Source: Spirochaetaceae bacterium
Lineage (GTDB): Bacteria > Spirochaetota > Spirochaetia > DSM-2461
Reading direction: 5' to 3'
Length of the DNA: 24,164 bases
Assembly (NCBI GenBank): GCA_027858495.1
Contig: JAQICO010000151.1
Location: forward strand, 1-24,164
A model generated the notes under the pieces. The model did no database searches and was not told the DNA's origin. It saw only the letters and a list, made by a program, of their open reading frames with translations. Positions 2,932-15,904 of the stretch are shown here, piece after piece; the first letter of the stretch is position 1, and each line of letters opens with the position of its first letter. The position numbers and the translations under genes were made by a program.

Positions 2932-3546
2932 ATGGGAAAGCGTAATGAAAAAAAGGAAGAGATAAAAAATAGAATACTTCAGGGAGCCGGTGAGGTTTTT
3001 GAAGTAATGGGTTTTGAAGATGCCACCATGCAGGAGATTGCCAGGAAAGCTGAGGTTGGCCTTGGAACCGCTTATAACTATTTCAAATCCAAGGAAGAGC
3101 TGTATATGCTTACTTTGGCAGATAAAATGAATCAGACCACTGGCGCTCCCATTGACGTTGAGGACAATTCACTTTCTGGTGCAGATATGGTTTGTCAGCA
3201 GATAATTAAACAGCTAAATACCCTGAAGCATATCCCCAAAAGCGTCTGGAAAACAGTTTTTGGTATATCCTTTAACTCTATGAAAAGGGATAAGTCTTTG
3301 CTGAAAAAAATTATGATGGCCGATTATCAGGCCATGGATAAAATTGCCCAATTGATTGATCTGTTAAATAAGAAAGGAAGTCTACAAGTCCAGGAAGACC
3401 CTAAAGTAATATCAGAAATCATTTACGGCTCTCTTTTTTTAGATATCATGATGTTTGTTTTTGAAGAGGAAAGAACCTTTCAGGAAACCTGTGATGCCAT
3501 ATGTAAAAAAATTCACTTTATTTTAGGGGAAAAACTTGATTTCTAA
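2932..3546 (+). CDS. TetR/AcrR-family transcriptional regulator (204 aa).
   Basis: The N-terminal HTH 'AGEVFEVMGFEDATMQEIARKAEVGLGTAYNYFKSKEELY' is a classic TetR_N signature. RBS is 'agggagattacATG'. A palindromic operator lies immediately upstream. Confidence 0.85.
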   Translation: MGKRNEKKEEIKNRILQGAGEVFEVMGFEDATMQEIARKAEVGLGTAYNYFKSKEELYMLTLADKMNQTTGAPIDVEDNSLSGADMVCQQIIKQLNTLKHIPKSVWKTVFGISFNSMKRDKSLLKKIMMADYQAMDKIAQLIDLLNKKGSLQVQEDPKVISEIIYGSLFLDIMMFVFEEERTFQETCDAICKKIHFILGEKLDF

Positions 3547-3566
3547 GAAAGGGTGTATTATTATAT

Positions 3567-3592
3567 TATTGTACTGTAGCACTAGTACAATA
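3567..3592 (+). promoter_or_regulatory. 26-bp palindrome TATTGTACT-N8-AGTACAATA in the 5' UTR of the GntR/YtrA gene; candidate GntR-type operator.
   Basis: The 9-bp arms are perfect inverted repeats with a GT...AC core, as expected for GntR-family operators. They sit directly before the RBS 'ggag' (3593-3596) and the ATG at 3603. A 'tattatt' direct repeat lies just upstream. Confidence 0.45.
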
Positions 3593-3602
3593 GGAGCTTT
3601 GA

Positions 3603-3989
3603 ATGGAAGAGCTTAAAAAACTGGAATTTCGTTTGGATCCCAAAGGGGGAGTTCCTTTCTACAAGCAGATTATTCTTCAAGTTGAGATGGCCATTGCAGA
3701 CGGTCGCTTGATTTCTGGAGAGCAGCTTCCTACTGTCCGGGGTCTGGCGGTGGATTTAAAGATTAATCCTAATACTGTTGCCAGGGCATATAACGAAATG
3801 GAGATTCGAGGAATCGTCAACACTCAACAGGGAACAGGAACCTTTATCAGCGATAGAGAAATTTCCATGACCGATGTGGAGCGTGAGAAAATCCTTACGG
3901 AATTGGTCCGTTCCTTTGTGGCACAGGCTGCTTCCTACGGTTTAACCCAGCAGGATCTATTGGAGTATTTACAGGAGGTTAAGTTATGA
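3603..3989 (+). CDS. GntR-family transcriptional regulator, short YtrA-like subfamily (128 aa).
   Basis: wHTH 'YKQIILQVEMAIADGRLISGEQLPTVRGLAVDLKINPNTVARAYNEMEIRGIVNTQQGTGTFIS' is typical of GntR N-termini. The short C-terminal region is characteristic of YtrA-type regulators, which usually govern adjacent ABC-transporter operons. Confidence 0.85.
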   Translation: MEELKKLEFRLDPKGGVPFYKQIILQVEMAIADGRLISGEQLPTVRGLAVDLKINPNTVARAYNEMEIRGIVNTQQGTGTFISDREISMTDVEREKILTELVRSFVAQAASYGLTQQDLLEYLQEVKL

Positions 3990-4014: not shown

Positions 4015-5127
4015 ATGAATAGTTTACTGTTAAAAAAATTCGATAAAATAAAAAATATACAGGATAAGGCTATTCCTAAGGATTTTTCCTTCAACGGATT
4101 CTCCTGGATGGTTTTAATGGTTTTCTTAAGCGGAGGAATTTTCCTTCAATGGCTTTTAGGTCTCTTTCCAGAAACCCTGGAACTGATTGAAATCTGCGGT
4201 GCCTTTGTAGGTGCAGCTCTGCTTTTATCCCTGCTTGGCCAATGGACCGTTTTGCTGGTTGCATTAATGGTCCTATGGGGCGGCATTTATTATCAGCAGG
4301 GGCTTCAGTCTCCCTGGCTATTGATAACAGCCTCCATGGGACTCATTCTTGCCGCGTCCTTTCAGCTGGTTTACCAATGGGACAAGGTGGTGGTTTTGCG
4401 GATGGGCAAATTTAAAAAGGTCCATGGCCCGGGGCTTTTTTTAATGCTGCCGTTGTTGGACCGAATCGCTTCATTCATCGATACCCGTATACGCGCCACA
4501 GATTTTTCTGCGGAAAAATCCCTAACCATGGATACTGTACCGGTTCATGTGGATGCCCTGTGTTTCTGGATGATCTGGGATGCCCAGAAGGCTATTCTGG
4601 AGGTGGAAAATTATATAGAAGCGGTAACCCTATCTGCACAAACAGCTCTTAGAGACAGTATCGGCCATCATGATTTACATACCCTGCTTTCCGATCGAAG
4701 GGAATTAAGCCTGGAAATCCAGAAGGTTCTTGATGGAAAGACCAATTCCTGGGGTATTAGTATTTTATCGGTGGAATTTACGGAAATCATCATACCTCAG
4801 GAATTGGAGGATGCCATGAGTAAACAGGCTCAGGCGGAACGGGAGAGGAAATCCCGGGTCATATTAAGTCAGGCAGAGGTTGAAGTGGCCCGGGAATTTA
4901 AGAAGGCTGCGGATATCTATAGAGACGATCCCACGGCCCTGCAAATACGTTCCATGAACATGGTCTACGATGGATTAAAGCAAAAGAAGGGTTCTTTAAT
5001 GGTTTTACCTTCTTCGGCATTGGATCAGATGAATTTGGGTACCGTAATGGGAATGCAAGCCCAAAAAGAGATTAAAGAGATGGAAGAAAAGATAAGGGAA
5101 ACAGAGATAGAAGGAGGCAATAAATGA
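4015..5127 (+). CDS. SPFH/Band-7 (stomatin/prohibitin-like) membrane protein with an extended multi-TM N-terminus (370 aa).
   Basis: Residues ~30-120 hold 3-4 predicted TM helices (FSWMVLMVFLSGGIFLQWLLGLF, LIEICGAFVGAALLLSLLG, WTVLLVALMVLWGGIYY, WLLITASMGLILAASFQLVY). A Band_7 core follows ('VVVLRMGKFKKVHGPGLFLMLPLLDRIASFIDTRIRATDF...DALCFWMIWDAQKAILEVENYIEAVTLSAQTALRDSIGHHDLHTLLSDRRELSLEIQKVL...ILSVEFTEIIIPQELEDAMSKQAQAERERKSRVILSQAEVEVAREFKKAADIY'), ending in a coiled-coil E/K-rich tail. RBS is 'tagggggaacgtaaaATG'. Its stop overlaps the downstream ATPase start (ATGA). Confidence 0.8.
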   Translation: MNSLLLKKFDKIKNIQDKAIPKDFSFNGFSWMVLMVFLSGGIFLQWLLGLFPETLELIEICGAFVGAALLLSLLGQWTVLLVALMVLWGGIYYQQGLQSPWLLITASMGLILAASFQLVYQWDKVVVLRMGKFKKVHGPGLFLMLPLLDRIASFIDTRIRATDFSAEKSLTMDTVPVHVDALCFWMIWDAQKAILEVENYIEAVTLSAQTALRDSIGHHDLHTLLSDRRELSLEIQKVLDGKTNSWGISILSVEFTEIIIPQELEDAMSKQAQAERERKSRVILSQAEVEVAREFKKAADIYRDDPTALQIRSMNMVYDGLKQKKGSLMVLPSSALDQMNLGTVMGMQAQKEIKEMEEKIRETEIEGGNK

Positions 5128-5804
5128 TAGCCATTAATGATGTGAAACGAACCTATATCAGCGGTGATGTGAAGGTTCAAGCACTAAAAGGGGTTAACTT
5201 AACCATAGAAAAGGGAGATTTTATCTCCATTGCAGGGCCCTCGGGTTCCGGAAAAACCACATTGCTCAATCTGGTTGGCTGTATCGATAAAATCGACAGC
5301 GGAACCATCACCATTGATGATGTGGATGTGACCTCCATGAGTAAAGAAGAAAAGGCCTATTTTAGGAGAGACACCCTGGGATTTATCTTTCAGAGTTATA
5401 ATTTGATACCCGTTTTAACGTCATATGAAAATATTGCCTTTGCTCTAAATTTACTGGATGTGGATGACAAAGAAATTAAAGAACGCACCATGGAAATTCT
5501 CAAGGAAGTAGGACTGGAAGGCATGGAAGATCGCCGGCCCAACCGGCTTTCAGGAGGACAGCAGCAGCGAGTAGCCATTGCAAGAGCCTTGGTGAAACAG
5601 CCCAAGATTATTCTTGCCGACGAACCCACAGCCAATCTGGATTCCCATACCGGTGAAGAAATTCTAACACTGATGGAAGAAATGAACCAGAAACACAAAA
5701 CCACCTTTGTTTTTTCCACCCATGACAAAATGGTTATGGATTATGCCCACCGTTTAGTGGAATTACACGATGGAGTGATTAAGAGCGATATAAGACGCAA
5801 GTAA
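5124..5804 (+). CDS. ABC transporter ATP-binding protein, MacB/LolD/FtsE-type (226 aa).
   Basis: Walker A 'GPSGSGKTTLLNLVG', signature 'LSGGQQQRVAIARAL' and Walker B 'ILADEPTANLD' are present, plus the H-loop 'FSTHD'. RBS is 'gaaggagg'. A 4-bp ATGA overlap with the SPFH gene indicates translational coupling. Confidence 0.9.
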   Translation: MIAINDVKRTYISGDVKVQALKGVNLTIEKGDFISIAGPSGSGKTTLLNLVGCIDKIDSGTITIDDVDVTSMSKEEKAYFRRDTLGFIFQSYNLIPVLTSYENIAFALNLLDVDDKEIKERTMEILKEVGLEGMEDRRPNRLSGGQQQRVAIARALVKQPKIILADEPTANLDSHTGEEILTLMEEMNQKHKTTFVFSTHDKMVMDYAHRLVELHDGVIKSDIRRK

Positions 5805-5816
5805 AAGGAGGGCGCC

Positions 5817-7070
5817 ATGAAAGGATTGGTTTCCCTGGGATTAAAAAATATTCTGCGGTATAAACGCAGAACCATTATAACTGCCCTTGCCATCGGCATG
5901 GGTTTGATGATGTTCATATTAACCGATTCCATGCTGAAGGGTCTCAGCCTGGATTCTGAATTAAGTATTATAAAATACGAGGTTGGAGCGGGACGAATAG
6001 TCACTTCGGAGTATGCCGAGGACTTTGAGGATATGCCGTTAAAAGAAACCCTGGATCCTTCGGTGATGGCTAAGTTAGAGCAAGGTGATTTTATTTGGGC
6101 GCCCCGAATAGAATTTACCGCTGAGATGGTTTTTCGTAAAGATCCCTATCCTGTCTCGGGCCATATCAATGTCCGGGTAACCGCAGTGGATCCCCAACGG
6201 GATATACAGGTCTTTGATTTAGAGAATTTCCTCATTGAGGGAAGATATCCCTTTCCTCAGGAAGAGGGTGTTGTTCTGGGAAGCTGGCTGGCGGAAGATA
6301 TGGGAATTCACTTGGGCTACCCCGTAGATTTGAGTATTCAAACACGCTTTGGAGGCCAGGAGTTGATGGAACTGACGGTGGTTGGAATTGTGGAGAGTCC
6401 CGATTCCATGATCAATCGTGGCTTGGTAATGGTTCCATTAAAAGTAGCTCAGGATTATCTGGAGATGGATGGTCAGGTAACTCAAATCGCGGTGAAGGCT
6501 CCCATGTGGCGTTCTTTGGAGAATGGAGACCTACGGAGGCTGAAGGATTTACTTCAGGGGACAAATGGAGAATTCTATCCCTGGGAATTCTGGTCTCAGG
6601 ATTTTCTTTCCATAGCCGAGGGAAAACAAACCTCTGCCTCCACCATTCTTTTTCTTGTATTTATCATTGCTGCGGTGGGAATCTCCAACACCGTGTTAAT
6701 GAGTATTTTCGAACGGGTTCGAGAGCTGGGGATGATGCGGGCCTTAGGTCTGACCGAAAGGGATGTCCGGCTGCTCTTTTTAATAGAATCCGGAGCCATC
6801 GGTTTACTTGGATCCATCCTGGGTGTGATCATGGGCATTTTAGTTACCTGGGGAATGGTTACAAAGGGTATCGATTATTCCAGCTATACCGATATATTGC
6901 GGGAGCAGAATATGGGATACCGAATGGCCAGCGTGTTTTATGGTGTTTGGGTGCCCCAAACCATGATATTGGCGGCGGTGTTTGGCGTGGTTTTATGTGT
7001 TGTCATCGCCTGGTTTTCCACAAAAAAGATTAATCGTCTGGAGATAACCCAGTGTCTGAGGTTCCAGTGA
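5817..7070 (+). CDS. ABC transporter permease, FtsX/MacB/LolC-E family, with a large periplasmic domain (417 aa); permease 1.
   Basis: N-terminal TM 'LKNILRYKRRTIITALAIGMGLMMFILTDSMLKG', then a ~220-aa extracytoplasmic domain. A C-terminal 3-TM FtsX module follows ('ILFLVFIIAAVGISNTVLMSIFERVRELGMMRALGLTERDVRLLFLIESGAIGLLGSILGVIMGIL'). RBS is 'aaggaggg'. Confidence 0.85.
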   Translation: MKGLVSLGLKNILRYKRRTIITALAIGMGLMMFILTDSMLKGLSLDSELSIIKYEVGAGRIVTSEYAEDFEDMPLKETLDPSVMAKLEQGDFIWAPRIEFTAEMVFRKDPYPVSGHINVRVTAVDPQRDIQVFDLENFLIEGRYPFPQEEGVVLGSWLAEDMGIHLGYPVDLSIQTRFGGQELMELTVVGIVESPDSMINRGLVMVPLKVAQDYLEMDGQVTQIAVKAPMWRSLENGDLRRLKDLLQGTNGEFYPWEFWSQDFLSIAEGKQTSASTILFLVFIIAAVGISNTVLMSIFERVRELGMMRALGLTERDVRLLFLIESGAIGLLGSILGVIMGILVTWGMVTKGIDYSSYTDILREQNMGYRMASVFYGVWVPQTMILAAVFGVVLCVVIAWFSTKKINRLEITQCLRFQ

Positions 7071-7128
7071 TGAAACAATATAATTTTGGACCCCTTGGGT
7101 CAAAAGAAAGAAGTATAGGAGGGTTAGA

Positions 7129-8382
7129 ATGAAACTGGCTCAAATTGCATTAAGAAATATCAGCCGTAATCGGCGTCGAAGCATTTTGTCTGGTTCCGCT
7201 ATTTCCGTGGCCACCATGAGTATTGTGTTGCTCTTTTCTTTAATGGCGGGAATGACCGTGGATTTAAAAGACAATATGCAGACCTATAGAACCGGTGCTA
7301 TCCGGCTTAGGAACCGGGATTTTGGGAAATATGAAAGACTGAATCCAACACACTTAGTGGTTAGAAACGGTCAAGCCATCATGAATATTCTGGAAGAGCA
7401 GGAAGAGATATCCAGCCTGTCTCCCAGAATCAATTTTATGGGAGCCTATACCTGGGATGATAAATTAAAAAATGTCATGGGTGTCGCCGTGGATTTCCAG
7501 CGGGAAGAGGGCTTTCAGAATATTTCAGAGGTTTTGGTTGCCGGCCGGCTTCCCACTCCTGGAACTTCTGAAGCACTGGTTGGTGTTAAAATGGCCCAGA
7601 AACTAGGGGTTAATTTTGAAGACGATTTAGAGGATAAAATAACCATCGTCACCACCACGGCTCAAAGAAGAAAGAAACTTTTCACCATAGAGATTGTGGG
7701 TATTGCCGGATTTCCCATGTCTGCCTTAAACGATGCCATGGTTTTAATACCCCTTGATAGGGCCCAAGACCTGCTGCGCATGCCCGATGCCTATTCTGAA
7801 ATCCTGATAAAGGTGGACGAAGATGTGGTTGACGTAGATCTGTACACGCCTCAATTGGCAGAACTGCTCCCTCTGGAAACCGAAAGAGAAGAAGATTCCC
7901 TGGAATTGAAAAGCTGGAAAGAAGACAATACCATCTGGGGTATGATGAGCATGGCTCAGGCCATGTATATGATCTTTGCCTTTTTCTTCTTCGTGCTGGG
8001 CAGCTCGGTAATCATCAATACCACCATGATGGTAATTTTTGAACGCATGCGTGAAATCGGTACCCTTGCAGCCATGGGGATGAGAGGTCGAGAGTTAACT
8101 AAATTATTCTTCTTAGAAGCCTTTTTTATATCCTTCTTCGGGGCCTTGGCGGGATTGATTGTGGGCATGATAATTACCCAGATTTTTCATGTCTTCGGAT
8201 TGAATCTGGGAGCCATGATGGAGGGCATCGACTTTGATATTTCCACCATTATCTACCCTCAGCTGGATCTCTTTTATACCGCCTTTACCTTTGTCTTTGC
8301 CGTGCTGGTGGCATCGTTGGCAACCTTTATACCCTCAATAAGAGCTTCAAGAATCGAACCGGTAGACGCGTTGAGGGCATAG
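7129..8382 (+). CDS. ABC transporter permease, FtsX/MacB-like (417 aa); permease 2, divergent paralog.
   Basis: Topology matches permease 1: N-TM 'IALRNISRNRRRSILSGSAISVATMSIVLLFSLMAG', a periplasmic domain, and a C-terminal module 'MYMIFAFFFFVLGSSVIINTTMMVIFERMREIGTLAAMGMRGRELTKLFFLEAFFISFFGALAGLIVGMII'. RBS is 'taggaggg'. Confidence 0.8.
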   Translation: MKLAQIALRNISRNRRRSILSGSAISVATMSIVLLFSLMAGMTVDLKDNMQTYRTGAIRLRNRDFGKYERLNPTHLVVRNGQAIMNILEEQEEISSLSPRINFMGAYTWDDKLKNVMGVAVDFQREEGFQNISEVLVAGRLPTPGTSEALVGVKMAQKLGVNFEDDLEDKITIVTTTAQRRKKLFTIEIVGIAGFPMSALNDAMVLIPLDRAQDLLRMPDAYSEILIKVDEDVVDVDLYTPQLAELLPLETEREEDSLELKSWKEDNTIWGMMSMAQAMYMIFAFFFFVLGSSVIINTTMMVIFERMREIGTLAAMGMRGRELTKLFFLEAFFISFFGALAGLIVGMIITQIFHVFGLNLGAMMEGIDFDISTIIYPQLDLFYTAFTFVFAVLVASLATFIPSIRASRIEPVDALRA

Positions 8383-8408
8383 TAGATTTAATATTTTAGG
8401 AGGAAAAA

Positions 8409-9134
8409 ATGAAAAATTGGATAATTGTAAGCATGATATTTGCATTGACCACAGGGCTTTGGGCCATCACCGGTGATGAAATTATAGAACGTTCCGATGC
8501 CCAGCAGCGGTTTGATACAATGAAAAGTACTGGAATAATGAGAGCTGATGACCGTTTTGGTACCATTGAAAGTACCTTCATTTCACATAGCAGAGGAGAC
8601 AATGAGTTTTTGCTGGAGTTCACCAATATCGAAGAACAGGGTCAAAAGGTTTTACGGGTGGACGGAGATATCTACCTTTACGATCCCGATGCCGAAGAAA
8701 CCCTCAGAATGAGCGGTTCCTCCTTAAAGGATTCCATGTTCGGAGACATCTCCTATGAAGATGTCTCCGAGGGAAATGATACACTGAGTAAATATGATGC
8801 AGCGTTATTAAAGGAAGAAGCCATAAACGGAGTGAACTGTTACCTGGTGGAATTGACTGCCAAAACCCGCAGCGTGCCCTATCATCGTCAGCTCCTATGG
8901 ATCAGAGTGGACAATTTAGTACTGCTGCGTGGAGAATATTATTCCCGCCGGGGAACGCTGCTCAAGGAAATCCGTGTCTTGGAAACCATGGAGATCGGCG
9001 GTAAAGTGGTGTTGTCCCACTTGATTCTTGAAGATAAGGTTCGTGAGGATTCCTCTACCGAATTGATCATGAATAATATTGAGGTGAACATTGAATTGGA
9101 CGACCGTATGTTCACCGAGGAAGCGTTATTCTAA
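8409..9134 (+). CDS. LolA-like periplasmic protein (outer-membrane lipoprotein-sorting protein family, Pfam LolA_like type), 241 aa with signal peptide.
   Basis: Signal peptide 'MKNWIIVSMIFALTTGLWA'. The mature region is a beta-rich fold with the family-typical 'MSGSSLKDSMFGDISYEDV' (GSDFSYEDL-like) motif, plus 'CYLVELTAK' and 'YYSRRGTLLKE' segments. Strong RBS 'aggaggaaaaaATG'. It is embedded between FtsX permease genes, a typical neighbourhood for this family. Confidence 0.6.
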   Translation: MKNWIIVSMIFALTTGLWAITGDEIIERSDAQQRFDTMKSTGIMRADDRFGTIESTFISHSRGDNEFLLEFTNIEEQGQKVLRVDGDIYLYDPDAEETLRMSGSSLKDSMFGDISYEDVSEGNDTLSKYDAALLKEEAINGVNCYLVELTAKTRSVPYHRQLLWIRVDNLVLLRGEYYSRRGTLLKEIRVLETMEIGGKVVLSHLILEDKVREDSSTELIMNNIEVNIELDDRMFTEEALF

Positions 9135-10378
9135 TGAAATCCAAGTATATATTTACATTGGCCATAAAAAATTTAACCCGCCATAAGCGCAGGACCTTTA
9201 TTACTGTGTTGGTACTGGCCATCGGTATAGCAACCTTTATTCTTCTGGACTCCATGCTTATTGGAGCCCGGAGGGCTTCAGAGATAAATCTGATCCGCCA
9301 TGAGATGGGATCGGCCAAGTTAGTAACACCGGAATATTGGGACGAGTGGAGGGATTTCCCCTTGAAATCCTCCGTGGAGAATCCCCGGGATATAATCCAG
9401 GCCCTGGATGATGCGGGAATTACAGCAGTCCCCCGGATACAGATAAATACCACCATGGTAATCAATTCAGGAATTGGAGGTTCCCTGCCCTCCCTGCTGA
9501 TTGGAATGGATATGCAGCAGGATTCCAAGGTTTTTGATACCCAGGGAGCCCTGAGCAGCGGACGGCTGCCCCAACCGGGTGAGGAAGCCTTGTTAATGGG
9601 ATCATGGATGGCAACAGATCTGAAATTGGAACTGGGTGATATTGTCTTTTTTCAAGTGGTTGACCGTCAGGGAGGCAATGAGGTCCTGGAAGCAGAGATT
9701 GTGGGGCTACTGGATACTCCCGACCCCATGGTAAACCGTATGGGGGTATATATTCCCCTGGATACCCTGGACTATTATCTATTCATGGAAGAAAGTGTAA
9801 CGGAAATTGCCCTATCCTTTCCCATGGGACCGGGAAAACGATCCGCAAGAAAAAACGCTGAGAACATAGCCAAGGATTTCGGCTTGGAGCTTCATACTTG
9901 GCAGGATTGGTCACAGGATTATCTCGCTGCTTCTGAGGGTGACAAATACGGATCTTTCATTATTCTCGTGTTGGTGTTTATTATTGCGGCAGTGGGTTTT
10001 TCCAATACACTGCTGATGGCATTGCTGGAACGGGTACCGGAAACTGGAATGATGCGGGCCCTGGGAACCACACAGGCCCAGTTGAGACGGTTGTTTTTAA
10101 CAGAATCTCTAATGCAGGGCCTGGCAGGATCTCTATTTGGAATATTCCTTGGTGTTTTATTTAATATCCCGGTGGTACTAAAGGGAATCGATTACAGCAG
10201 TATAATGCGAGATATGAGTGTGGGCTATCGCTTTACGGGAATAATTTACGGAGTCTGGGCTTCCAGCAGCTATATTATCTCTATGTTAAGCGGGGTGTCC
10301 ATTGCACTTGCCGTGTCCTGGTTCAGCATTAAAAAAGCTCTCAAATTGAAGATAACCGATTCCATTCGGGGGAATTAG
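9134..10378 (+). CDS. ABC transporter permease, FtsX/MacB-like (414 aa); permease 3, close paralog of permease 1.
   Basis: Aligns with permease 1 along its whole length. Examples: 'IKNLTRHKRRTFITVLVLAIGIATFILLDSML' vs 'LKNILRYKRRTIITALAIGMGLMMFILTDSML', and 'LVLVFIIAAVGFSNTLLMALLERVPETGMMRALG' vs 'LFLVFIIAAVGISNTVLMSIFERVRELGMMRALG'. Its start overlaps the LolA-like stop (TAATG). Confidence 0.85.
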   Translation: MKSKYIFTLAIKNLTRHKRRTFITVLVLAIGIATFILLDSMLIGARRASEINLIRHEMGSAKLVTPEYWDEWRDFPLKSSVENPRDIIQALDDAGITAVPRIQINTTMVINSGIGGSLPSLLIGMDMQQDSKVFDTQGALSSGRLPQPGEEALLMGSWMATDLKLELGDIVFFQVVDRQGGNEVLEAEIVGLLDTPDPMVNRMGVYIPLDTLDYYLFMEESVTEIALSFPMGPGKRSARKNAENIAKDFGLELHTWQDWSQDYLAASEGDKYGSFIILVLVFIIAAVGFSNTLLMALLERVPETGMMRALGTTQAQLRRLFLTESLMQGLAGSLFGIFLGVLFNIPVVLKGIDYSSIMRDMSVGYRFTGIIYGVWASSSYIISMLSGVSIALAVSWFSIKKALKLKITDSIRGN

Positions 10379-10440: not shown

Positions 10441-11649
10441 ATGAAAAAAAATATAATCATCATCTTTGTACTGGGTTTATTGACTTCCCTGGCCGCAGAG
10501 ACCAGTCTGAGTCTGGATATGCGTTTTATGCAGTCCCTCTATCGCGGTGCGGATAATAAATTATACAGTCAACCTGCAGGTACGGTGGAAATGACCATGC
10601 GATCTGCAGGAAACAGCGATGTTAAGGCCGATCTAATGATCGATTACATACCCATGAATGCCCCGCCAGGCGGAATGGCGCTGCCCCTTTTTGATCTTAA
10701 AAAAGCCTCGGTAAAGCTTCGTTTCCCCGGTCTTAGAATAACCATGGGTAAAACCCGGGTAGGCTGGGGTGAAGGGTCGGTTTTTAATTCCGGCGCTGTG
10801 CTTTTTGGAAGTCTCTCTCCCCTGGTTGACCTGACCCAGGATGAAGCCCGAACTGATACAGCCTGGCTGACCTTGCTTCGCTGGAGTCCCTCGGGAGATT
10901 TCTGGGTGGAGGGGATTTATATGCCTCCCACTCCCTCCTGGGATATTTCCATTGATAATGATGCCGACGATGTTACCCCGGAATATTTTTCCTTAAATAA
11001 CAGTGTTCCCGATGTCTACAGCAGTTCTGCCGGCTTGCGGATGGTGGGTGAATTGGGAGACCTGATTGTGGAAACCGGATATCTTGCCAAGGGAGAGTTA
11101 AAGGCCCTGGGTGATGTCACTGGTCATCGGCCCTATATTACCCTTCATGGAGAAATGTATTTTGATCTTTATGGCTCGGCATCCATGGCCATACCCTGGC
11201 AGGATTTTGACTGGGATACAGATCGAGGGTCCTTTAATATCAGCGCAGGTCTGTTCCGTCAGTTTCAACTATGGTATGACGGTACATTGTCCGCACGGAT
11301 GGAATTTTTGGTCTTTCCCTATCAAAAATGGGAGGAACAGGATTTCAGGCTAAATCCTCTGGCAAATGAGACCTACAGTCTTTATTTATACCCCGAGTTT
11401 AATTTAGCCATAGGACGAAATTTAAATATCCCCCTAATGGCCATGATTTCACCGCTGGATCAATCTGCCCAGATAACCGCGGGATTCTCCTGGAAGGTAT
11501 ATCAGGGATTCAGCTTCTTGGGTTACGGAATCTTTTCTGTAGGCCAATCGAAAGATGTTTTCGCCTGGGACAGACTATCCTCCGATCTTATGGTGGGCGA
11601 TGTAATAAATGGCTGGTCCGTAATGACTGGGCTTAGGTATACCTTCTAA
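10441..11649 (+). CDS. Predicted outer-membrane beta-barrel protein (402 aa) with signal peptide and C-terminal beta-signal.
   Basis: Signal peptide 'MKKNIIIIFVLGLLTSLAAE'. Amphipathic alternating-hydrophobic strands run throughout. The C-terminus '...WSVMTGLRYTF' has the OMP beta-signal pattern: terminal Phe and hydrophobic residues at -3 and -5. RBS is 'agaggag'. No family assignment possible by eye. Confidence 0.55.
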   Translation: MKKNIIIIFVLGLLTSLAAETSLSLDMRFMQSLYRGADNKLYSQPAGTVEMTMRSAGNSDVKADLMIDYIPMNAPPGGMALPLFDLKKASVKLRFPGLRITMGKTRVGWGEGSVFNSGAVLFGSLSPLVDLTQDEARTDTAWLTLLRWSPSGDFWVEGIYMPPTPSWDISIDNDADDVTPEYFSLNNSVPDVYSSSAGLRMVGELGDLIVETGYLAKGELKALGDVTGHRPYITLHGEMYFDLYGSASMAIPWQDFDWDTDRGSFNISAGLFRQFQLWYDGTLSARMEFLVFPYQKWEEQDFRLNPLANETYSLYLYPEFNLAIGRNLNIPLMAMISPLDQSAQITAGFSWKVYQGFSFLGYGIFSVGQSKDVFAWDRLSSDLMVGDVINGWSVMTGLRYTF

Positions 11650-11722
11650 TAAACTGGGATTGTGGGAATATTTAATAATCTCTAAACAGCTTTTGTCATG
11701 GTGTGTTATGATTATGCCTAAT

Positions 11723-12805
11723 ATGAAATTTTTTATATCGATTATTAGCCTATTATTATTTACCCAATGTCTCAGTTATGATGGACCGGAGATGGATTTA
11801 TCCAATGATCCCTTTTATTTGGGAGCAGACCTGTCATCGGTAAATGAAATGGAAGATCAAAATATTGTTTTTACCAGGGGAGATCAAACCATTGATCCCT
11901 ACGAATTTTTTTCCCATTGGGGCATGAATCTTGTAAGACTTCGCCTTTGGCATAGCCCTACTTGGACGGAGTACTTTACCTTGCCTGATGTCAAAAAAAG
12001 TATATCCAGGGCCAGGGAGCAGGGAATGACCGTTCTCTTGGATTTCCATTATTCCGATACTTGGGCTGATCCGGGAAGTCAAATCCCCCCTGCCAGCTGG
12101 CAGGGATCCTCCGATGAAGAGATGGCGGAGCAGTTGTATTTGTACACCTATGAAACCTTGGAGGCTCTGAACCAACAAGATTTACTTCCAGAAATGGTGC
12201 AGCTTGGTAATGAGATAAATCAGGGAATATTAAAATCACAAAGTGATATAGATTGGCCCAGACAATCCTTGTTATTCAATGCTGCCATTGCTGCTGTTCA
12301 TGAGATGGAGCAGACCAGTGGGAAATCCATTGAAATTATGCTGCATATAGCTGGGCCGGAGAATGCCCAATGGTGGTTTGATAAAGCCATAGAGGCAGGC
12401 ATTCAAGACTTCGACCTCATTGGGTTATCCTACTATCCCACGTGGAGTACCCTCGGGCTAAAGCAATGCGGTTCAATGCTGAGTTTTTTGGCTCAGCGAT
12501 ACCAGCGTCAAGTGATGATTGTTGAAACTGGATATCCATGGACATCGGAGGATTCCATAGATACAGCGGATAATATCCTTAATAAAGGGTTGCGCCGCTA
12601 TGGAATTTCCAAAGACGGACAGAGGCAATTCTTTGATGATTTGGTAGATATTGCCAGGGAGTCAGGAGCAATCGGCGTCGTTTACTGGGAGCCCGCATGG
12701 GTGTCCACCGATTCCCCCAGTCCCTGGGGAGTTGGTTCCCATTGGGAAAATATAACCTGGTTTGACTTTGAGAATCGATTACACCAATCATGGGAAACTC
12801 CATGA
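11723..12805 (+). CDS. Glycoside hydrolase family 53 endo-beta-1,4-galactanase, secreted or lipoprotein (361 aa from the ATG at 11723).
   Basis: Shows the GH53 hallmarks 'DFHYSDTWADPGSQ', acid/base motif 'VQLGNEINQG' and nucleophile motif 'MIVETGYPW'. The N-terminal signal is 'MKFFISIISLLLFTQC'. The track ORF begins at a TTG at 11660 and ATGs also occur at 11708 and 11714, so the exact start is uncertain. Confidence 0.75.
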   Translation: MKFFISIISLLLFTQCLSYDGPEMDLSNDPFYLGADLSSVNEMEDQNIVFTRGDQTIDPYEFFSHWGMNLVRLRLWHSPTWTEYFTLPDVKKSISRAREQGMTVLLDFHYSDTWADPGSQIPPASWQGSSDEEMAEQLYLYTYETLEALNQQDLLPEMVQLGNEINQGILKSQSDIDWPRQSLLFNAAIAAVHEMEQTSGKSIEIMLHIAGPENAQWWFDKAIEAGIQDFDLIGLSYYPTWSTLGLKQCGSMLSFLAQRYQRQVMIVETGYPWTSEDSIDTADNILNKGLRRYGISKDGQRQFFDDLVDIARESGAIGVVYWEPAWVSTDSPSPWGVGSHWENITWFDFENRLHQSWETP

Positions 12806-14316
12806 CAGATCTTAAGGATTTTCTTCAATCTCATAGGCTTTTCACTCATCTTAACAGTAAACAGTTAAAATCCTTGGTACAGCATTGCAGGGTATTACAA
12901 TGCCCTATGGACTCCACTTTGTTTTATCCCAGAGAAAGAATCGATTCTCTTCTATTGGTGAGGGACGGATGTCTTTCCTTGGGAAAACAGAGGGCCTTTG
13001 GGGGCAACAGCCTGTTTATAAGCTCTCTGGCCCTTCCAATAGAAATGGATGAACCATTGATTGCCGCAGAAGAAAGTCGGATTATCATTCTAAAAAGAAA
13101 TGCCTTTCTTCGTTGGATTCGTGCCAATAGAGGAGCATTAAGACGTTTGGGTGCACATACTTTTGGCCAAAAAGAATGGGGATTCCCCTGGATTTTTTGG
13201 AAGGAATACGGTGCATTGCTGCCCCTGGGGCGAAAAGTGAAGAACCAGAAGGCCCTTTTGGTTCTCCGACGATGGTGGCCCCTATGGCTGGTTCGGCAGC
13301 TTCCATTTGTGGGTATAGCAGGGTTCTCCCTGTTCTTTCCTGTGGTTTGGTGGCTCGCCATACCTGCAGGACTGGCATTCCTCTTTTCTTTGCTTCTAAG
13401 ACATTCCAACGGGCTTTTTATAACACCTGCCTCGGTAATTGTCAGGATTTTTAAACTTAGAGGACTCCATCGTCAGGTGATGAAGATACCCCTTGAGCAA
13501 ATAAAGGCTCTGGAAATTCAGCGCCGTGGGATAATACCCTCCATATTAAGGGTGGGTAGTCTGGCCATGAAAACCAGTTCCTTACAGGGCTCCTTTGTGG
13601 TCCCTCAGATCAGAAAACCAGAAAGGGCAGAGCAGCTGCTAAACTCTTTAAGAGAACAAAGGGGTGGAGCGAAACCCGACAGATTAACCCGACTAAAAGA
13701 AGCATGGCAACGTAGAAAGTCCGATAATAATCACCCTAAAGAACTTTTCCAAGGATCGCTCTATAATCCTACTGTAAAAACCCAAGAGGTAATCCGTTTT
13801 AAGAAATCTCCCTTTGTATTATTTAAACATATATTTATACCATTATTGATATGGTTACTTCCGCTGAGCGCCTTGGTTTTCCAATTTTTTCCCGAGCCTT
13901 GGAATATTCCTCTTCTCCTTTTATCTCTTCCTCCTTTAGGATTGCTGCTCTATCGATGGGAGGATTGGCGAAATGATATTTTTAAGGTGGCCGGTGATTC
14001 TGTTTTTGACGTAGATAAAAAGCCCCTGGGTAAAGAGATGACCCGCCGCCAAACCCAGTTGGTTCAAATAGAAAATATCACCGCACGTCAGAAGGGTTTT
14101 GCTTCCTGGCTGTTCAATGCAGGGTCTGTTCGAATTATCTTACCGGGAGAAACCGGAGAATTTGAGTTTGAGGATGTAAAAGATCCTTGGTTTGTACAGG
14201 ATGAACTATTAAGGCTGCGCACAGAGGCTTTGGAAAAACAAAAAATGAGCCAACAGGATGAACGTTTTCAAGAGCTTTTGGATTTGGCTGATCTTTTGGC
14301 TCAAGAGCTTCGATAA
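12802..14316 (+). CDS. Membrane protein with an N-terminal cNMP-binding-like domain followed by two TM-hairpin + bPH_2 (YdbT/YdbS-like bacterial PH) modules (504 aa).
   Basis: Start taken at the ATGA overlap with the GH53 stop at 12802-12805 (the track start at 12790 is also possible). Residues ~10-110 resemble a degenerate cNMP-binding fold ('LFTHLNSKQLKSLVQHCRVLQCPMDSTLFYPRERIDSLLLVRDGCLSLG...FGGNSLF'). The first TM pair is 'LLVLRRWWPLWLVRQLPFVGIAGFSLFFPVVWWLAIPAGLAFLFSLLL'. bPH-like 1 is 'ITPASVIVRIFKLRGLHRQVMKIPLEQIKALEIQRRGIIPSILRVGSLAMKT'. The second TM pair is 'IFIPLLIWLLPLSALVF...LLLLSLPPLGLLLY'. bPH-like 2 is 'IFKVAGDSVFDVDKKPLGKEMTRRQTQLVQIENITARQKGFASWLFNAGSVRIIL'. A coiled-coil C-tail follows. 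Confidence 0.55.
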   Translation: MTDLKDFLQSHRLFTHLNSKQLKSLVQHCRVLQCPMDSTLFYPRERIDSLLLVRDGCLSLGKQRAFGGNSLFISSLALPIEMDEPLIAAEESRIIILKRNAFLRWIRANRGALRRLGAHTFGQKEWGFPWIFWKEYGALLPLGRKVKNQKALLVLRRWWPLWLVRQLPFVGIAGFSLFFPVVWWLAIPAGLAFLFSLLLRHSNGLFITPASVIVRIFKLRGLHRQVMKIPLEQIKALEIQRRGIIPSILRVGSLAMKTSSLQGSFVVPQIRKPERAEQLLNSLREQRGGAKPDRLTRLKEAWQRRKSDNNHPKELFQGSLYNPTVKTQEVIRFKKSPFVLFKHIFIPLLIWLLPLSALVFQFFPEPWNIPLLLLSLPPLGLLLYRWEDWRNDIFKVAGDSVFDVDKKPLGKEMTRRQTQLVQIENITARQKGFASWLFNAGSVRIILPGETGEFEFEDVKDPWFVQDELLRLRTEALEKQKMSQQDERFQELLDLADLLAQELR

Positions 14317-14335: not shown

Positions 14336-15904
14336 ATGAGATACCAATGGCTTTGTCTATTATTTATATTCCTTTTGAGTTTTGGGCTCCATGCCCAAGA
14401 GGCCTATTATAGAGCTGTAGGCTACGATGCCTTCCATCGTATTGAGGGTCAATTTCCTCTGGATGCCACTGACAGTGAGGATCTAAACTGTTATCGTTTT
14501 ACCTATGACGAATTAGAAGAGCCTGTACGTATTGAGTACCTAAATCGCGGCAGAGCTCTGGCAGATCCTTTTTTTAAAGTTCCCGTTGTAGAAATTGAGT
14601 ATTCAGAAGGTTTTATCCACAGAATATATAAGGATTCTCAGGGCAAACCGGCTCCCGACGAACAAGGTGTATACTCACAACGGTTAAAATTAAACACACA
14701 GGGATTCGCTCAATCTCTCTTTAACTATGACCGCTTGGGTAATCTACGCAGTGACAATATGGGAGTAGCAGCCTATTACTGGAATCTTGATAAGAACGGT
14801 TTATCCGTTGAGGCGTTATTTCTTAACAGTTATGGAGAGCCCGTGCAAAATCGAGAAGGTATATCTTTAATAAGATATGACTATGATGAAGCTTTCAGAA
14901 TGAAGGAACTTCGCTATCTAAACCCTCAGGGAGAACCCATAACCAGTAATGAAACGGCCATCGCTGGAATGACTTTCAGTTATAATGATCAGGGATTGAA
15001 GGAAGAGCAAACTTTTTTGGATGAACAAGGAAACCTTGCCAGCAATATAGAAAATATATCAAAAATCCGCTGGGCCTACGACGAACAGGGCTCTATGCTT
15101 CTGCAGGAGCATTATGATGATCAGGATAATCTAACCACCGATGTGCACCATGTGGCAGTATACTTTTGGGGTTATGACTCAAGGGGTAATAGAATCCTTC
15201 AGGAGCATTACAATACCCTGGGAGAGCCCACTGAGGATGATGCCGGAGTTTTCCGTTATAGATGGATTTATTACGAACAGGGCAATGAACTTGAAAAAAT
15301 CAATGAAAATCTAGATGGTTCTCTTACCCTAGATGATTGGGGGCTTGCATCCTACCGATGGACCTTTGATGAACGTGGTCAAATCACCGAAGCCAAGTAT
15401 TACGGAATAGACGACAGCCTGAAAGAAGACAATTGGGGCGTTGCCATTTATCAATGGGATTATGACGATAGTGGAAATATGGTTGAATCCAGGTCTTTTT
15501 CTGATTGGGAAACCCTGCAGGATGATTCCAGAGGTGTTGCTGTTTACCGTTGGGCCTATGATGATCGGGGAAACCGTATAATGGAAAATCATTATGACAG
15601 CCGAGAGATTCAGGTAGAAGACAGCGATGGAATTGCTTCTATCGGCTGGAGTTACGATGATGAGAATAATATGAATAAGCAGGAACAGTTTGGACTATAC
15701 GGACAATATAGAGCCGATAATAAGGGTGTGGCCATATATCATTGGGATCATGACCGTTTTGGGAATATCATCGAAGAGACTTACCTCGGAATCGATGAAC
15801 AGAACGTAGAGAATGTTTCAGGTATTGCCTTGGCCAGATGGTCCTATGACAACCTTGGAAATAGATTAAGAGTTGCCAGATTTGATCGAAAAAGTATTCC
15901 CTGA
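14336..15904 (+). CDS. Secreted tandem-repeat protein with ~14 YD-like (Rhs/YD-repeat-related) 33-aa repeats (522 aa from the ATG at 14336).
   Basis: Signal peptide 'MRYQWLCLLFIFLLSFGLHAQ' (the track start at 14258 would add a second hydrophobic stretch). The repeated unit is 'G-[VI]-A-x-Y-x-W-x-YD-x-x-GN-x-[IL]-x-E-x-[YH]-(x8-10)-D-x-x-G'. Examples: 'VAVYFWGYDSRGNRILQEHY', 'VAIYQWDYDDSGNMVESRSF', 'VAVYRWAYDDRGNRIMENHY', 'VAIYHWDHDRFGNIIEETYL', 'IALARWSYDNLGNRLRVARF'. There is no C-terminal toxin or other domain. Confidence 0.55.
   Translation: MRYQWLCLLFIFLLSFGLHAQEAYYRAVGYDAFHRIEGQFPLDATDSEDLNCYRFTYDELEEPVRIEYLNRGRALADPFFKVPVVEIEYSEGFIHRIYKDSQGKPAPDEQGVYSQRLKLNTQGFAQSLFNYDRLGNLRSDNMGVAAYYWNLDKNGLSVEALFLNSYGEPVQNREGISLIRYDYDEAFRMKELRYLNPQGEPITSNETAIAGMTFSYNDQGLKEEQTFLDEQGNLASNIENISKIRWAYDEQGSMLLQEHYDDQDNLTTDVHHVAVYFWGYDSRGNRILQEHYNTLGEPTEDDAGVFRYRWIYYEQGNELEKINENLDGSLTLDDWGLASYRWTFDERGQITEAKYYGIDDSLKEDNWGVAIYQWDYDDSGNMVESRSFSDWETLQDDSRGVAVYRWAYDDRGNRIMENHYDSREIQVEDSDGIASIGWSYDDENNMNKQEQFGLYGQYRADNKGVAIYHWDHDRFGNIIEETYLGIDEQNVENVSGIALARWSYDNLGNRLRVARFDRKSIP

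What the first reader, a model, noticed from the sequence alone, without database searches (positions are those of the whole stretch)
14336..15904. Secreted protein built almost entirely of ~14 tandem 33-residue 'GVAxYxWxYDxxGN' repeats (YD/Rhs-like but longer period, no toxin domain)
The repeat consensus contains the YD-x2-G[RN] core of Rhs/YD repeats. It has a conserved Trp two residues upstream and a fixed ~33-aa period, versus ~21 aa for classical YD repeats. The protein is only ~520 aa, with a signal peptide and no RHS core or C-terminal toxin or cap. It could be a distinct beta-solenoid or beta-hairpin repeat class derived from, or convergent with, YD repeats. Its position beside GH53 suggests glycan binding.
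Basis: seen in the sequence. Interest (0 to 1): 0.55.

Follow-up and report, generated by a model that had tools for sequence, protein, structure and literature searches.

The report
Secreted 32-residue YD-like repeat protein
This gene encodes a secreted protein built from about 16 beta-hairpins, a longer-period (32-residue) cousin of the YD/Rhs repeat with no toxin, and it belongs to a large, uncurated bacterial family in which the same array is usually the outside part of membrane receptors.

Summary
Window 14336-15904 (+) encodes a 522-aa protein: a signal-peptide-like N-terminus, a three-hairpin cap, then 13 regular repeats. The period is 32 residues, not 33 (lag-32 autocorrelation z = 17.9; no signal at 21, 22 or 33).

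It is related to YD/Rhs repeats. Pfam RHS_repeat and TIGR01643 score above their cut-offs. A repeat profile finds solved Rhs proteins first. An AlphaFold model (pLDDT 91.7) matches Rhs, teneurin and Tc shells best, but only locally (TM 0.34 or less).

It is not an Rhs toxin. It has no Rhs core domain, no DPxGL motif and no C-terminal cargo, and it is too short for a closed cocoon.

The repeat class is widespread: 7,639 50%-identity clusters at E <= 1e-10, with spacing almost always 32-33 residues. Most top members are TIR, Ser/Thr kinase or nSTAND1 domain + one TM helix + this array. That suggests an extracytoplasmic binding or sensor module. The Trp is specific to this protein's own clade.

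The GH53 argument fails. GH53 is not adjacent and is absent from all related loci. The conserved partner is the upstream cNMP-binding/bPH membrane protein (20 of 24 informative loci).

Verdict: a new variant of a known kind, of moderate interest.

The parts
14336..15904 (+). CDS of the 522-aa YD-like repeat protein, stop codon included.
   Evidence: ORF list and translation. Full-length orthologues at 38-44% identity occur in 24 other loci.
14336..14398 (+). Signal-peptide-like leader, residues 1-21 (MRYQWLCLLFIFLLSFGLHAQ). Cleavage is inferred after LHA or LHAQ.
   Evidence: Basic N-terminus, hydrophobic core and small residues before the conserved EAYYR. AlphaFold pLDDT is below 50 for residues 1-19. 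All 17 orthologues inspected have an equivalent leader ending just before EAW[YF]R. Distant relatives P0005 and P0015 have lipobox-like leaders. No dedicated signal-peptide predictor was available.
14399..14665 (+). N-terminal cap, residues 22-110: three degenerate hairpins (YYRAVGYD...GQFPLD...CYRFTYD...VRIEYLNRG...).
   Evidence: Strands 21-30/36-42, 50-57/63-70 and 84-90/93-99 in the model. The segment aligns with the conserved membrane-proximal segment (YYxDYVxxxGxPxGxxxL...YRF...V...N..G) of the TIR-TM-array proteins.
14666..15901 (+). Thirteen regular 32-residue repeats, residues 111-522. Unit starts are at nt 14666, 14762, 14858, 14957, 15053, 15149, 15245, 15341, 15437, 15533, 15629, 15725 and 15821. 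Within a unit, positions 4-9 form strand 1 (xYxWxY) and positions 10-14 the DxxGN turn. Positions 15-21 form strand 2, followed by a 14-residue connector.
   Evidence: Register and autocorrelation. DSSP of the pLDDT 91.7 model shows 13 hairpins spaced 32 residues apart, with one step of 33. Pfam and TIGRFAM YD hits fall in this region.
12790..14316 (+). Upstream gene, 19 nt away on the same strand. It encodes a cyclic-nucleotide-binding-like domain plus two TM hairpins, each followed by a bPH_2 domain. It is the conserved gene-pair partner.
   Evidence: bPH_2 hit here. cNMP_binding plus bPH_2 hits in orthologues. tblastn finds it directly upstream of the YD-like gene in 20 loci, although it is only 21-42% identical. 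The intergenic gap is 19 nt with no terminator-like site.

Best explanation
The gene encodes an exported, acidic (pI 4.4), aromatic-rich protein. It is a stand-alone copy of a widespread extracytoplasmic module: a small cap followed by a tandem array of 32-residue YD-like beta-hairpin repeats.

Each unit keeps the classical YD hairpin (xYxYDxxGN turn, then xIExxYF). It adds a connector of about 10 extra residues (G/D-x-D-G-x-P-x-L-x-x-x-G-x-A) before the next hairpin. The hairpins line up into a long curved antiparallel sheet that locally resembles the wall of an Rhs, teneurin or Tc cocoon. With only about 32 strands, no Rhs core or plug and no cargo, it cannot be a closed toxin container.

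Inferred function: it is a binding or sensing surface outside the cytoplasmic membrane. Its clade-specific Tyr-x-Trp-x-Tyr ladder on strand 1 probably forms part of the ligand face. It works together with the co-transcribed cyclic-nucleotide-binding/bPH membrane protein. This would be a split counterpart of the fused 'cytoplasmic TIR, kinase or nSTAND1 domain - TM - array' receptors that dominate the family.

Shown: repeat anatomy, YD kinship, fold class, family size and architectures, and the conserved gene pair. Inferred: export, the binding or sensor role, and physical or functional coupling to the neighbour. The ligand is unknown.
For: Repeat anatomy: (lag-32 z = 17.9).

YD kinship:
- PF05593 at 35.6 bits against 22, and TIGR01643 at 35 against 15.8.
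- The A1 profile hits solved Rhs proteins first: 8h8a at 2.5e-10, 7q97 at 3.7e-6, Tse15 at 1e-4.

Structure:
- AlphaFold2 with a 56-row alignment gives pLDDT 91.7 and pTM 0.76, with 16 hairpins.
- The Foldseek top 43 PDB hits are all Rhs-repeat shells: Rhs, teneurin, Tc BC and mosquito SGS1 (E = 7e-18 to 2e-9). TMq is only 0.11-0.34.

Not a toxin shell: no TIGR03696 or any other domain at E <= 10, no DPxGL motif, and the last hairpin ends at residue 516 of 522.

Family:
- The exhaustive HMM search finds 22,016 clusters at E <= 1e-3, 7,639 at 1e-10 and 2,910 at 1e-30.
- In the top 149 plus the first 28 homologues, 85% of 4,072 unit spacings are 31-34 residues. Spacing 32 occurs 2,458 times and 33 occurs 792 times.
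- Architectures are N-terminal TIR (44 of 149), Ser/Thr kinase or nSTAND1, then one TM helix, then the array to the C-terminus.
- Secreted stand-alone forms also exist.
- In the literature, C-terminal variable domains of STAND, TIR and kinase conflict proteins are read as sensors (PMC10907252).

Export: leaders in all orthologues.

Gene pair: the cNMP/bPH gene lies directly upstream in 20 of 24 informative orthologous loci, despite 21-42% identity. The surrounding genes differ between loci.
Against: - No ligand, localisation or interaction was tested.
- The model's coordinates could not be inspected. The overall shape (open spiral or ring) and the face carrying the Trp ladder are therefore inferred from the DSSP pattern and search scores only.
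- The partner protein's predicted periplasmic loops are only a few residues long, from reading the sequence. Direct contact with a periplasmic protein is therefore not obvious.
- Two orthologous loci with upstream sequence (L005, L022) show no partner at E <= 1e-5.
- Other secreted family members share no common neighbours.
- The MSA used for the model mixes paralogous repeats in shifted register. This can make the repeat lattice look more regular than it is.
Confidence: 0.62

Rival explanations
1. It is a conventional Rhs/YD toxin-delivery protein, or a truncated remnant of one. Its repeats would form a cocoon that encapsulates a C-terminal toxin.
For: Pfam and TIGRFAM YD-repeat hits. The best structural matches are Rhs, Tc and teneurin shells.
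Against: - No Rhs repeat-associated core domain, no DPxGL motif and no toxin, PAAR, VgrG or TcB-type domain at E <= 10.
- The array runs to within 6 residues of the C-terminus.
- The period is 32, not about 21.
- Global TM-scores to cocoons are 0.34 or less.
- Full-length orthologues of the same 520-570 aa size and layout occur in 24 loci, so it is not a fragment.
Confidence: 0.03
2. It is a glycan-binding accessory protein of the nearby GH53 endo-galactanase, part of a galactan-utilisation locus.
For: - GH53 is encoded at 11660-12805 on the same strand.
- The mature protein is acidic and rich in Tyr and Trp. It has a repeated Y-x-W-x-Y strand motif, as in some carbohydrate-binding surfaces.
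Against: - GH53 is separated from it by another gene.
- tblastn with the GH53 protein finds it in none of the 29 related loci, whereas the cNMP/bPH neighbour is conserved.
- In orthologous loci the upstream genes are EamA, RluA-type or NfeD/FloA genes instead.
- No CBM or lectin family hit was found.
Confidence: 0.08
3. It is a structural or adhesive envelope protein. For example, it could be a periplasmic scaffold or surface adhesin acting by homophilic or heterophilic protein contacts, as teneurin YD shells do. It would have no signalling link to its neighbour, and the gene pairing would reflect only shared regulation.
For: - It is exported, and it forms a large rigid beta-sheet.
- YD shells of teneurins serve adhesion (PMC5851990, listed).
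- Some distant secreted members sit next to outer-membrane or T9SS-type genes.
- The partner's periplasmic loops are tiny.
Against: - The same module is overwhelmingly fused to cytoplasmic signalling or effector domains across a TM helix. That argues for information transfer rather than pure structure.
- The pairing with one specific membrane protein persists at 21-42% identity while the flanks change.
Confidence: 0.2
4. It is a MORN-type or YwqK-antitoxin-type hairpin repeat protein rather than a YD derivative.
For: In the viral structure library the best Foldseek matches are MORN-repeat and YwqK-family proteins (E down to 3e-13).
Against: - No MORN (PF02493 or PF07661) hit at E <= 10.
- Sequence profiles hit YD/Rhs models and Rhs structures specifically.
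- In the PDB the Rhs, teneurin and Tc proteins outrank everything else.
- The BFVD similarity has TM 0.37 or less, and the BFVD list shows no Rhs-named entry among its top 50. That pattern fits generic hairpin-repeat similarity.
Confidence: 0.04

Closest known systems
YD / Rhs repeat (Pfam PF05593 RHS_repeat; TIGR01643 YD_repeat_2x)
   Same: - Shares the core xYxYDxxG[RN]-x-[ILV] hairpin motif and scores above both curated cut-offs.
- Has one beta-hairpin per repeat.
- The best PDB sequence and fold matches are Rhs proteins.
   Different: - The period is 32-33 residues instead of about 21. Lags 21 and 22 give no signal.
- A conserved extra connector (G/D22-x-D24-G25-x-P27-x-L29...G1-x-A3) lies between hairpins.
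- HMM matches cover only the 12-30 residues around the YD turn.
Rhs, Tc BC and teneurin beta-cocoon proteins (for example 8qjb, 7q97, 4igl, 6fb3)
   Different: - No Rhs core or aspartyl-protease motif, no plug and no toxin.
- About 32 strands, which is too few for a closed multi-turn shell. TMq is 0.34 or less.
- It is exported by a signal peptide rather than by a T6SS or Tc system.
Uncurated family of TIR-, Ser/Thr-kinase- or nSTAND1-TM proteins with C-terminal 32-residue YD-like arrays (for example P0002, P0035, P0043, P0069, P0072)
   Same: - Same unit length and consensus, and the same cap next to the membrane or leader.
- Significant full-length similarity (E down to 2e-52).
   Different: - The window's protein has a cleavable-looking leader instead of a TM anchor and cytoplasmic domain.
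- It has fewer units (13, against a median of 24).
- It has Trp at unit position 7 and a weaker G25/P27 second turn.
- It is paired with a separate cNMP/bPH membrane protein.
MORN repeats and YwqK-type antitoxins; small Bacteroides proteins DUF3836 (4r03, 4r8o) and BF3112 (3msw)
   Different: - No MORN sequence-family match.
- Different period and motif.

Membership tests
YD/Rhs repeat superfamily (PF05593, TIGR01643) | Whole-protein score above the curated cut-off of the family HMMs. | tested here: met
   PF05593 scores 35.6 bits against a cut-off of 22. TIGR01643 scores 35.0 bits against 15.8, with 4 stretches.
YD/Rhs repeat superfamily (PF05593, TIGR01643) | YDxxG[RN] turn motif recurring in tandem. 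| tested here: met
   There are 9-10 [WF]x[YF]DxxG matches in register. In the family logo, Y9 is 68%, D10 83%, G13 85% and N/R14 72%.
YD/Rhs repeat superfamily (PF05593, TIGR01643) | Repeat period of about 20-22 residues. | tested here: not met
   The period is 32. z = 17.9 at lag 32, 0.7 at lag 21 and -1.9 at lag 22. Family spacing is 32 or 33.
YD/Rhs repeat superfamily (PF05593, TIGR01643) | Beta-hairpin repeats forming a curved antiparallel sheet like the Rhs shell wall. | tested here: met
   [not shown]
Rhs/Tc-type toxin-encapsulating cocoon proteins | Rhs repeat-associated core domain (TIGR03696) with a DPxGL-type autoproteolytic motif. | tested here: not met
   NCBIfam at E <= 10 returns only TIGR01643. 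A regular-expression search finds no DP.GL.
Rhs/Tc-type toxin-encapsulating cocoon proteins | C-terminal polymorphic toxin or cargo domain. | tested here: not met
   The last hairpin spans residues 499-516 of 522. There are no further Pfam or NCBIfam domains.
Rhs/Tc-type toxin-encapsulating cocoon proteins | Closed multi-turn shell, with global fold similarity to solved cocoons. | tested here: not met
   Foldseek TMq is 0.11-0.34 and rmsd 13-34 A, despite E about 1e-17. The array is only about 410 residues. Model coordinates could not be viewed.
32-residue YD-like array family (uncurated; TIR, kinase or nSTAND1 - TM - array, and secreted forms) | Tandem units spaced 32-33 residues apart, with consensus G1-x-A3...Y9-D10-x-x-G13-N14-x-I16-E17...Y20-F21-[GD]22-x-D24-G25-x-P27. 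| tested here: met
   Query spacing is 32, with one step of 33. G1, A3, Y9, D10, G13 and N14 are well kept. The second turn (G25/P27) is kept in only some units.
32-residue YD-like array family (uncurated; TIR, kinase or nSTAND1 - TM - array, and secreted forms) | Conserved cap module preceding the array (YY..V...G.P.G...L....YRF....V...N..G). | tested here: met
   Query residues about 23-72 align with the juxtamembrane segment of the TM proteins in A3, and with P0001, P0005, P0015 and P0016.
32-residue YD-like array family (uncurated; TIR, kinase or nSTAND1 - TM - array, and secreted forms) | Extracytoplasmic location of the array. | not testable with these tools
   This is inferred from leaders in the query and all orthologues. 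In fused members, basic residues precede the TM helix and the cytoplasmic-type domains lie on the N-terminal side.
32-residue YD-like array family (uncurated; TIR, kinase or nSTAND1 - TM - array, and secreted forms) | Fusion to a TM anchor and a cytoplasmic signalling or effector domain. This is typical of the family but not universal. | tested here: not met
   The query has only a leader plus the array. A separate membrane protein with a cNMP-binding domain is encoded 19 nt upstream.
MORN / MORN-variant (YwqK) repeats | Match to PF02493 or PF07661, with a period of about 23 residues. | tested here: not met
   There is no such hit at E <= 10, and the period is 32. Only generic structural similarity is seen.

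The most novel reading that the evidence does not exclude
The 32-residue YD-like array, with its cap, is an unrecognised and very widespread bacterial extracytoplasmic sensor domain. It is wired across a single TM helix to immune or death-type cytoplasmic modules: TIR, nSTAND1 and Ser/Thr kinase. The topology recalls Toll-like receptors, with an outside repeat ectodomain, a TM helix and an inside TIR domain. In this spirochaete-like clade the receptor would be split into a secreted array and a co-transcribed cyclic-nucleotide-binding/bPH membrane protein that relays or gates the signal.
Probability: 0.25. Interest if true: 0.75.

Novelty: new variant of a known kind. Interest (0 to 1): 0.5.

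Why it matters
YD repeats are known almost only as the walls of toxin cocoons (Rhs, Tc) and of the teneurin ectodomain. Here the same hairpin has been re-spaced to 32 residues. It is used, without any cargo, as an open extracytoplasmic array.

The family holds thousands of 50%-identity clusters. No dedicated Pfam or NCBIfam model was found in the copies searched. Members are annotated, if at all, by their TIR or kinase domain, or as 'YD repeat-containing' or 'hypothetical'.

Defining the family would give a name and a testable sensor hypothesis to the outside halves of many bacterial TIR, nSTAND1 and kinase membrane proteins. The stand-alone 58-kDa protein in this window, with its conserved single partner gene, is a convenient minimal member for structural and binding studies.

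Tried and rejected
- AlphaFold2 without an alignment gave pLDDT 37 and was discarded.
- phmmer of the whole protein against PDB sequences found nothing meaningful. Only the repeat profile reached Rhs proteins.
- The search for related loci with the six-protein alignment A2 failed because it had no conserved stretch.
- The single-protein scan of metagenome contigs found nothing. It succeeded only with the three-orthologue alignment A4.
- The afdb50 fold library was unavailable.
- PF27244 appeared in precomputed annotations of two homologues. It turned out to be a faint GtfB_M hit and was ignored.
- Scattered sub-threshold or odd Pfam hits inside arrays were treated as spurious matches to the repeat. 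These were DUF2963, DUF1508, CENP-F_C, SNase, DUF6055 and DUF6443.
- Literature searches for a description of TIR, kinase or STAND proteins with YD-type ectodomains found none. That is absence in the library searched, not proof of absence.
- The alternative start at 14258 was rejected.
- Guilt by association from distant secreted members (L005, L006, L007) gave no common neighbour.
- A sandbox MAFFT --auto run on whole proteins and a slow shuffle script timed out. Both were redone in other ways.
Full report
**The sequence.** The finding's coordinates frame a real ORF. Translation from the ATG at 14336 to the stop at 15902-15904 gives 522 residues. A longer reading from ATG 14258 is possible but unlikely. 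It would overlap the 3' end of the upstream gene, which stops at 14316. Also, all 17 orthologues inspected begin with a basic-hydrophobic-AxA-like leader that ends just before the conserved EAW[YF]R motif. In the window that motif follows MRYQWLCLLFIFLLSFGLHAQ. The mature protein is about 58.6 kDa and acidic (pI 4.4). It is rich in Tyr (7.8%) and Trp (2.6%).

**The repeats.** Laid out on a 32-residue grid, the protein stays in register from about residue 111 to the C-terminus, apart from a single 33-residue step.
- BLOSUM62 autocorrelation of the mature sequence is +0.83 at lag 32.
- The mean for 1000 shuffles is -0.94 +/- 0.10, so z = 17.9. Lags 64 and 96 give z = 13.7 and 13.0.
- Lags 21, 22 and 33 are at background. 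The best value at any lag in any shuffle was -0.40.

'~14 repeats' becomes 13 regular units plus three degenerate N-terminal hairpins. Units are only 25% identical on average, and Tandem Repeats Finder sees nothing at the DNA level. The array is ancient rather than a recent expansion. The motif GVAxYxWxYDxxGN is present in that form in 9-10 units.

**Relation to YD/Rhs repeats.**
- Pfam RHS_repeat scores 35.6 bits (cut-off 22). TIGR01643 YD_repeat_2x scores 35.0 bits (cut-off 15.8). Nothing else of note appears at E <= 10: no Rhs core domain, no toxin and no MORN.
- The whole protein finds nothing in PDB sequences.
- A 64-column profile of 100 double units (A1) ranks solved Rhs proteins first: 8h8a at 2.5e-10, 7q97 at 3.7e-6 and Tse15 at 1e-4. 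Teneurins follow more weakly. The alignments cover only the xYxYDxxGNxxE core.

**Structure.** A single-sequence AlphaFold run was useless (pLDDT 37). With a 56-row alignment of family members that I checked to be in repeat phase, the model has mean pLDDT 91.7 and pTM 0.76. The leader is disordered, and 16 beta-hairpins follow.

In a regular unit, positions 4-9 form strand 1, and positions 10-14 (DxxGN) form the turn. Positions 15-21 form strand 2. A 14-residue connector with one bridging residue leads to the next hairpin.
- Foldseek against the PDB returns Rhs, teneurin, Tc BC and SGS1 proteins, all Rhs-repeat shells, as the top 43 hits (E = 7e-18 to 2e-9). TM-scores are only 0.11-0.34.
- In a viral model library the nearest are MORN/YwqK hairpin repeats.

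Locally, therefore, this is a YD-type hairpin sheet with Rhs-like curvature. Globally it is not a cocoon. I could not view coordinates, so the overall shape is inferred.

**What distinguishes the unit.** The logo below comes from 3,852 ungapped units of the 149 best family members.

| Position | Residue(s) | Frequency |
|---|---|---|
| 1 | G | 78% |
| 3 | A | 61% |
| 9 | Y | 68% |
| 10 | D | 83% |
| 13 | G | 85% |
| 14 | N | 54% |
| 16 | I/T/V | 77% |
| 17 | E | 47% |
| 20 | Y | 58% |
| 21 | F | 48% |
| 22 | G/D | 90% |
| 24 | D | 47% |
| 25 | G | 71% |
| 27 | P | 66% |
| 29 | L | 31% |

I compared this with the classical YDxxGRLxxxxDxxGxxxxYx unit, as I know it from the Pfam and TIGRFAM consensus. 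The hairpin is about two residues longer. About nine extra residues (K-P-x-L-x-x-x-G-x-A) sit between the second turn and the next strand.

Position 7, where the window's protein has Trp, is variable in the family (Y 15%, A 11%, S 10%, R 10%). The Trp is a trait of this orthologous clade, where Y5-x-W7-x-Y9 is conserved. It is not a trait of the class.

**How widespread.** The word-indexed search found only 28 relatives. The best was 42% identical, and the query itself is not in that collection. The exhaustive HMM search with A1 over 1.84 billion cluster representatives found 22,016 proteins at E <= 1e-3, 7,639 at 1e-10 and 2,910 at 1e-30.

Classical Rhs proteins reach only about 43 bits with this profile. 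That would be about E = 1e-6 in this library, so the counts at 1e-10 or lower should be mostly the 32-residue class.

In the best 149 plus the first 28 proteins, 85% of 4,072 unit spacings are 31-34 residues. Spacing 32 occurs 2,458 times and 33 occurs 792 times. There are up to 52 units per protein.

**Architectures.** Of the top 149, 44 have an N-terminal TIR domain. Others have Ser/Thr kinase or nSTAND1 NTPase domains. A single hydrophobic segment follows, then a 100-200-residue conserved linker, then the array to the C-terminus. Some add a C-terminal PDZ domain. A minority are leader plus array only, such as P0005 and P0015 with lipoboxes, and P0013, P0016, P0034, P0081 and P0092.

The query's N-terminal cap aligns with the conserved juxtamembrane linker of the TM proteins. 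Cap plus array is therefore one module that is always outside the cytoplasm.

No dedicated Pfam or NCBIfam model covers the module in the copies searched. Source names are 'TIR domain-containing', 'serine/threonine protein kinase', 'YD repeat-containing' or none. I found no description in the paper library. The literature does read C-terminal variable domains of STAND, TIR and kinase 'conflict' proteins as sensors (PMC10907252).

**Genomic context.** Between the two genes lies a 508-aa membrane protein gene (12790-14316) with bPH_2 domains and two TM hairpins. Its orthologues also show an N-terminal cyclic-nucleotide-binding domain.

Genome and metagenome scans gave 24 orthologous loci at 38-44% identity, and two of the genome hits are Spirochaetaceae MAGs. 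tblastn with the window's neighbours gave these results:
- The cNMP/bPH gene lies directly upstream in 20 loci, although it is only 21-42% identical.
- GH53 is present in none of the loci.
- ispF-ispD-carD follow directly in two loci only.
- In many others a DUF4340 / GldG-like / ABC-2 transporter set lies between the pair and carD, and NfeD/FloA or EamA genes lie upstream.
- Exceptions are L005 and L022. L012, L025 and L026 lack enough upstream DNA.

The gap in the window is 19 nt with no terminator-like site. The conserved unit is therefore the two-gene pair. More distant secreted members share no neighbours.

**Interpretation.** Shown: a confident hairpin-repeat fold of YD ancestry with a 32-residue lattice; absence of every Rhs-toxin hallmark tested; membership of a large family whose array sits outside the membrane; and a conserved partner gene.

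Inferred: the protein is exported and acts as a binding or sensing surface, and the clade-specific aromatic ladder and variable strand-1 positions probably contribute to that surface. It would work with the cNMP/bPH membrane protein as a split version of the fused receptors.

The weak point is that the partner's periplasmic loops look very short, so the coupling may be indirect. The ligand is unknown. Glycan binding remains possible on composition alone, but it gains nothing from GH53.

**Verdict.** The YD-derived, longer-period, toxin-less reading is right. The Trp and GH53 points are not. This is a new variant of a known kind: an ordinary-looking member of a large but uncurated family. Its main value is as an entry point to that family and to the conserved gene pair.

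Noticed in passing
window 12790-14316 (+); L001, L002, L008-L011, L013-L021, L023, L024, L027-L029: A gene for a cyclic-nucleotide-binding + 2x(TM hairpin + bPH_2) membrane protein lies immediately upstream of the YD-like gene in 20 orthologous loci. It is only 21-42% identical across them, and the flanking genes differ. It looks like a conserved two-gene operon of unknown function.
   Followed up: yes
proteins P0002-P0177 (family members outside the window): The same 32-residue array is mostly the C-terminal, extracytoplasmic part of single-pass membrane proteins. Their N-terminal domains are TIR, Ser/Thr kinase or nSTAND1, and some carry a C-terminal PDZ. The layout resembles a receptor. No dedicated Pfam or NCBIfam model exists in the copies searched.
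   Followed up: partly
window 10441-11649 (+): This 402-aa ORF has no Pfam hit. It has 36%-identical relatives a few kb upstream of the YD-like gene in L001 and L014, so it may be loosely linked to the locus.
   Followed up: no
window 4015-10378 (+): This is a run of SPFH/Band7, an ABC ATPase, three paralogous FtsX/MacB-type permeases and a LolA-like protein. TetR and GntR regulators lie upstream (2932-3989). It is a MacB/Lol-like export cluster with an unusual three permease genes.
   Followed up: no
[not shown]
   Followed up: no
window 11660-12805 / 12790-14316: The listed GH53 ORF (TTG start at 11660) overlaps the start of the cNMP/bPH gene by 16 nt. GH53 therefore appears inserted into this strand-wise gene run in this genome only, since it is absent from all related loci.
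   Followed up: partly
L016 189-2713 and 6530-11181; L005 2789-3622: In many orthologous loci the gene pair is flanked by NfeD + FloA (flotillin-like) upstream. Downstream, on the opposite strand, lies a DUF4340 / ABC_transp_aux (GldG-like) / ABC-2 / ABC ATPase set. The window itself has an SPFH protein 9 kb upstream. This may be a recurring membrane-organisation neighbourhood.
   Followed up: no
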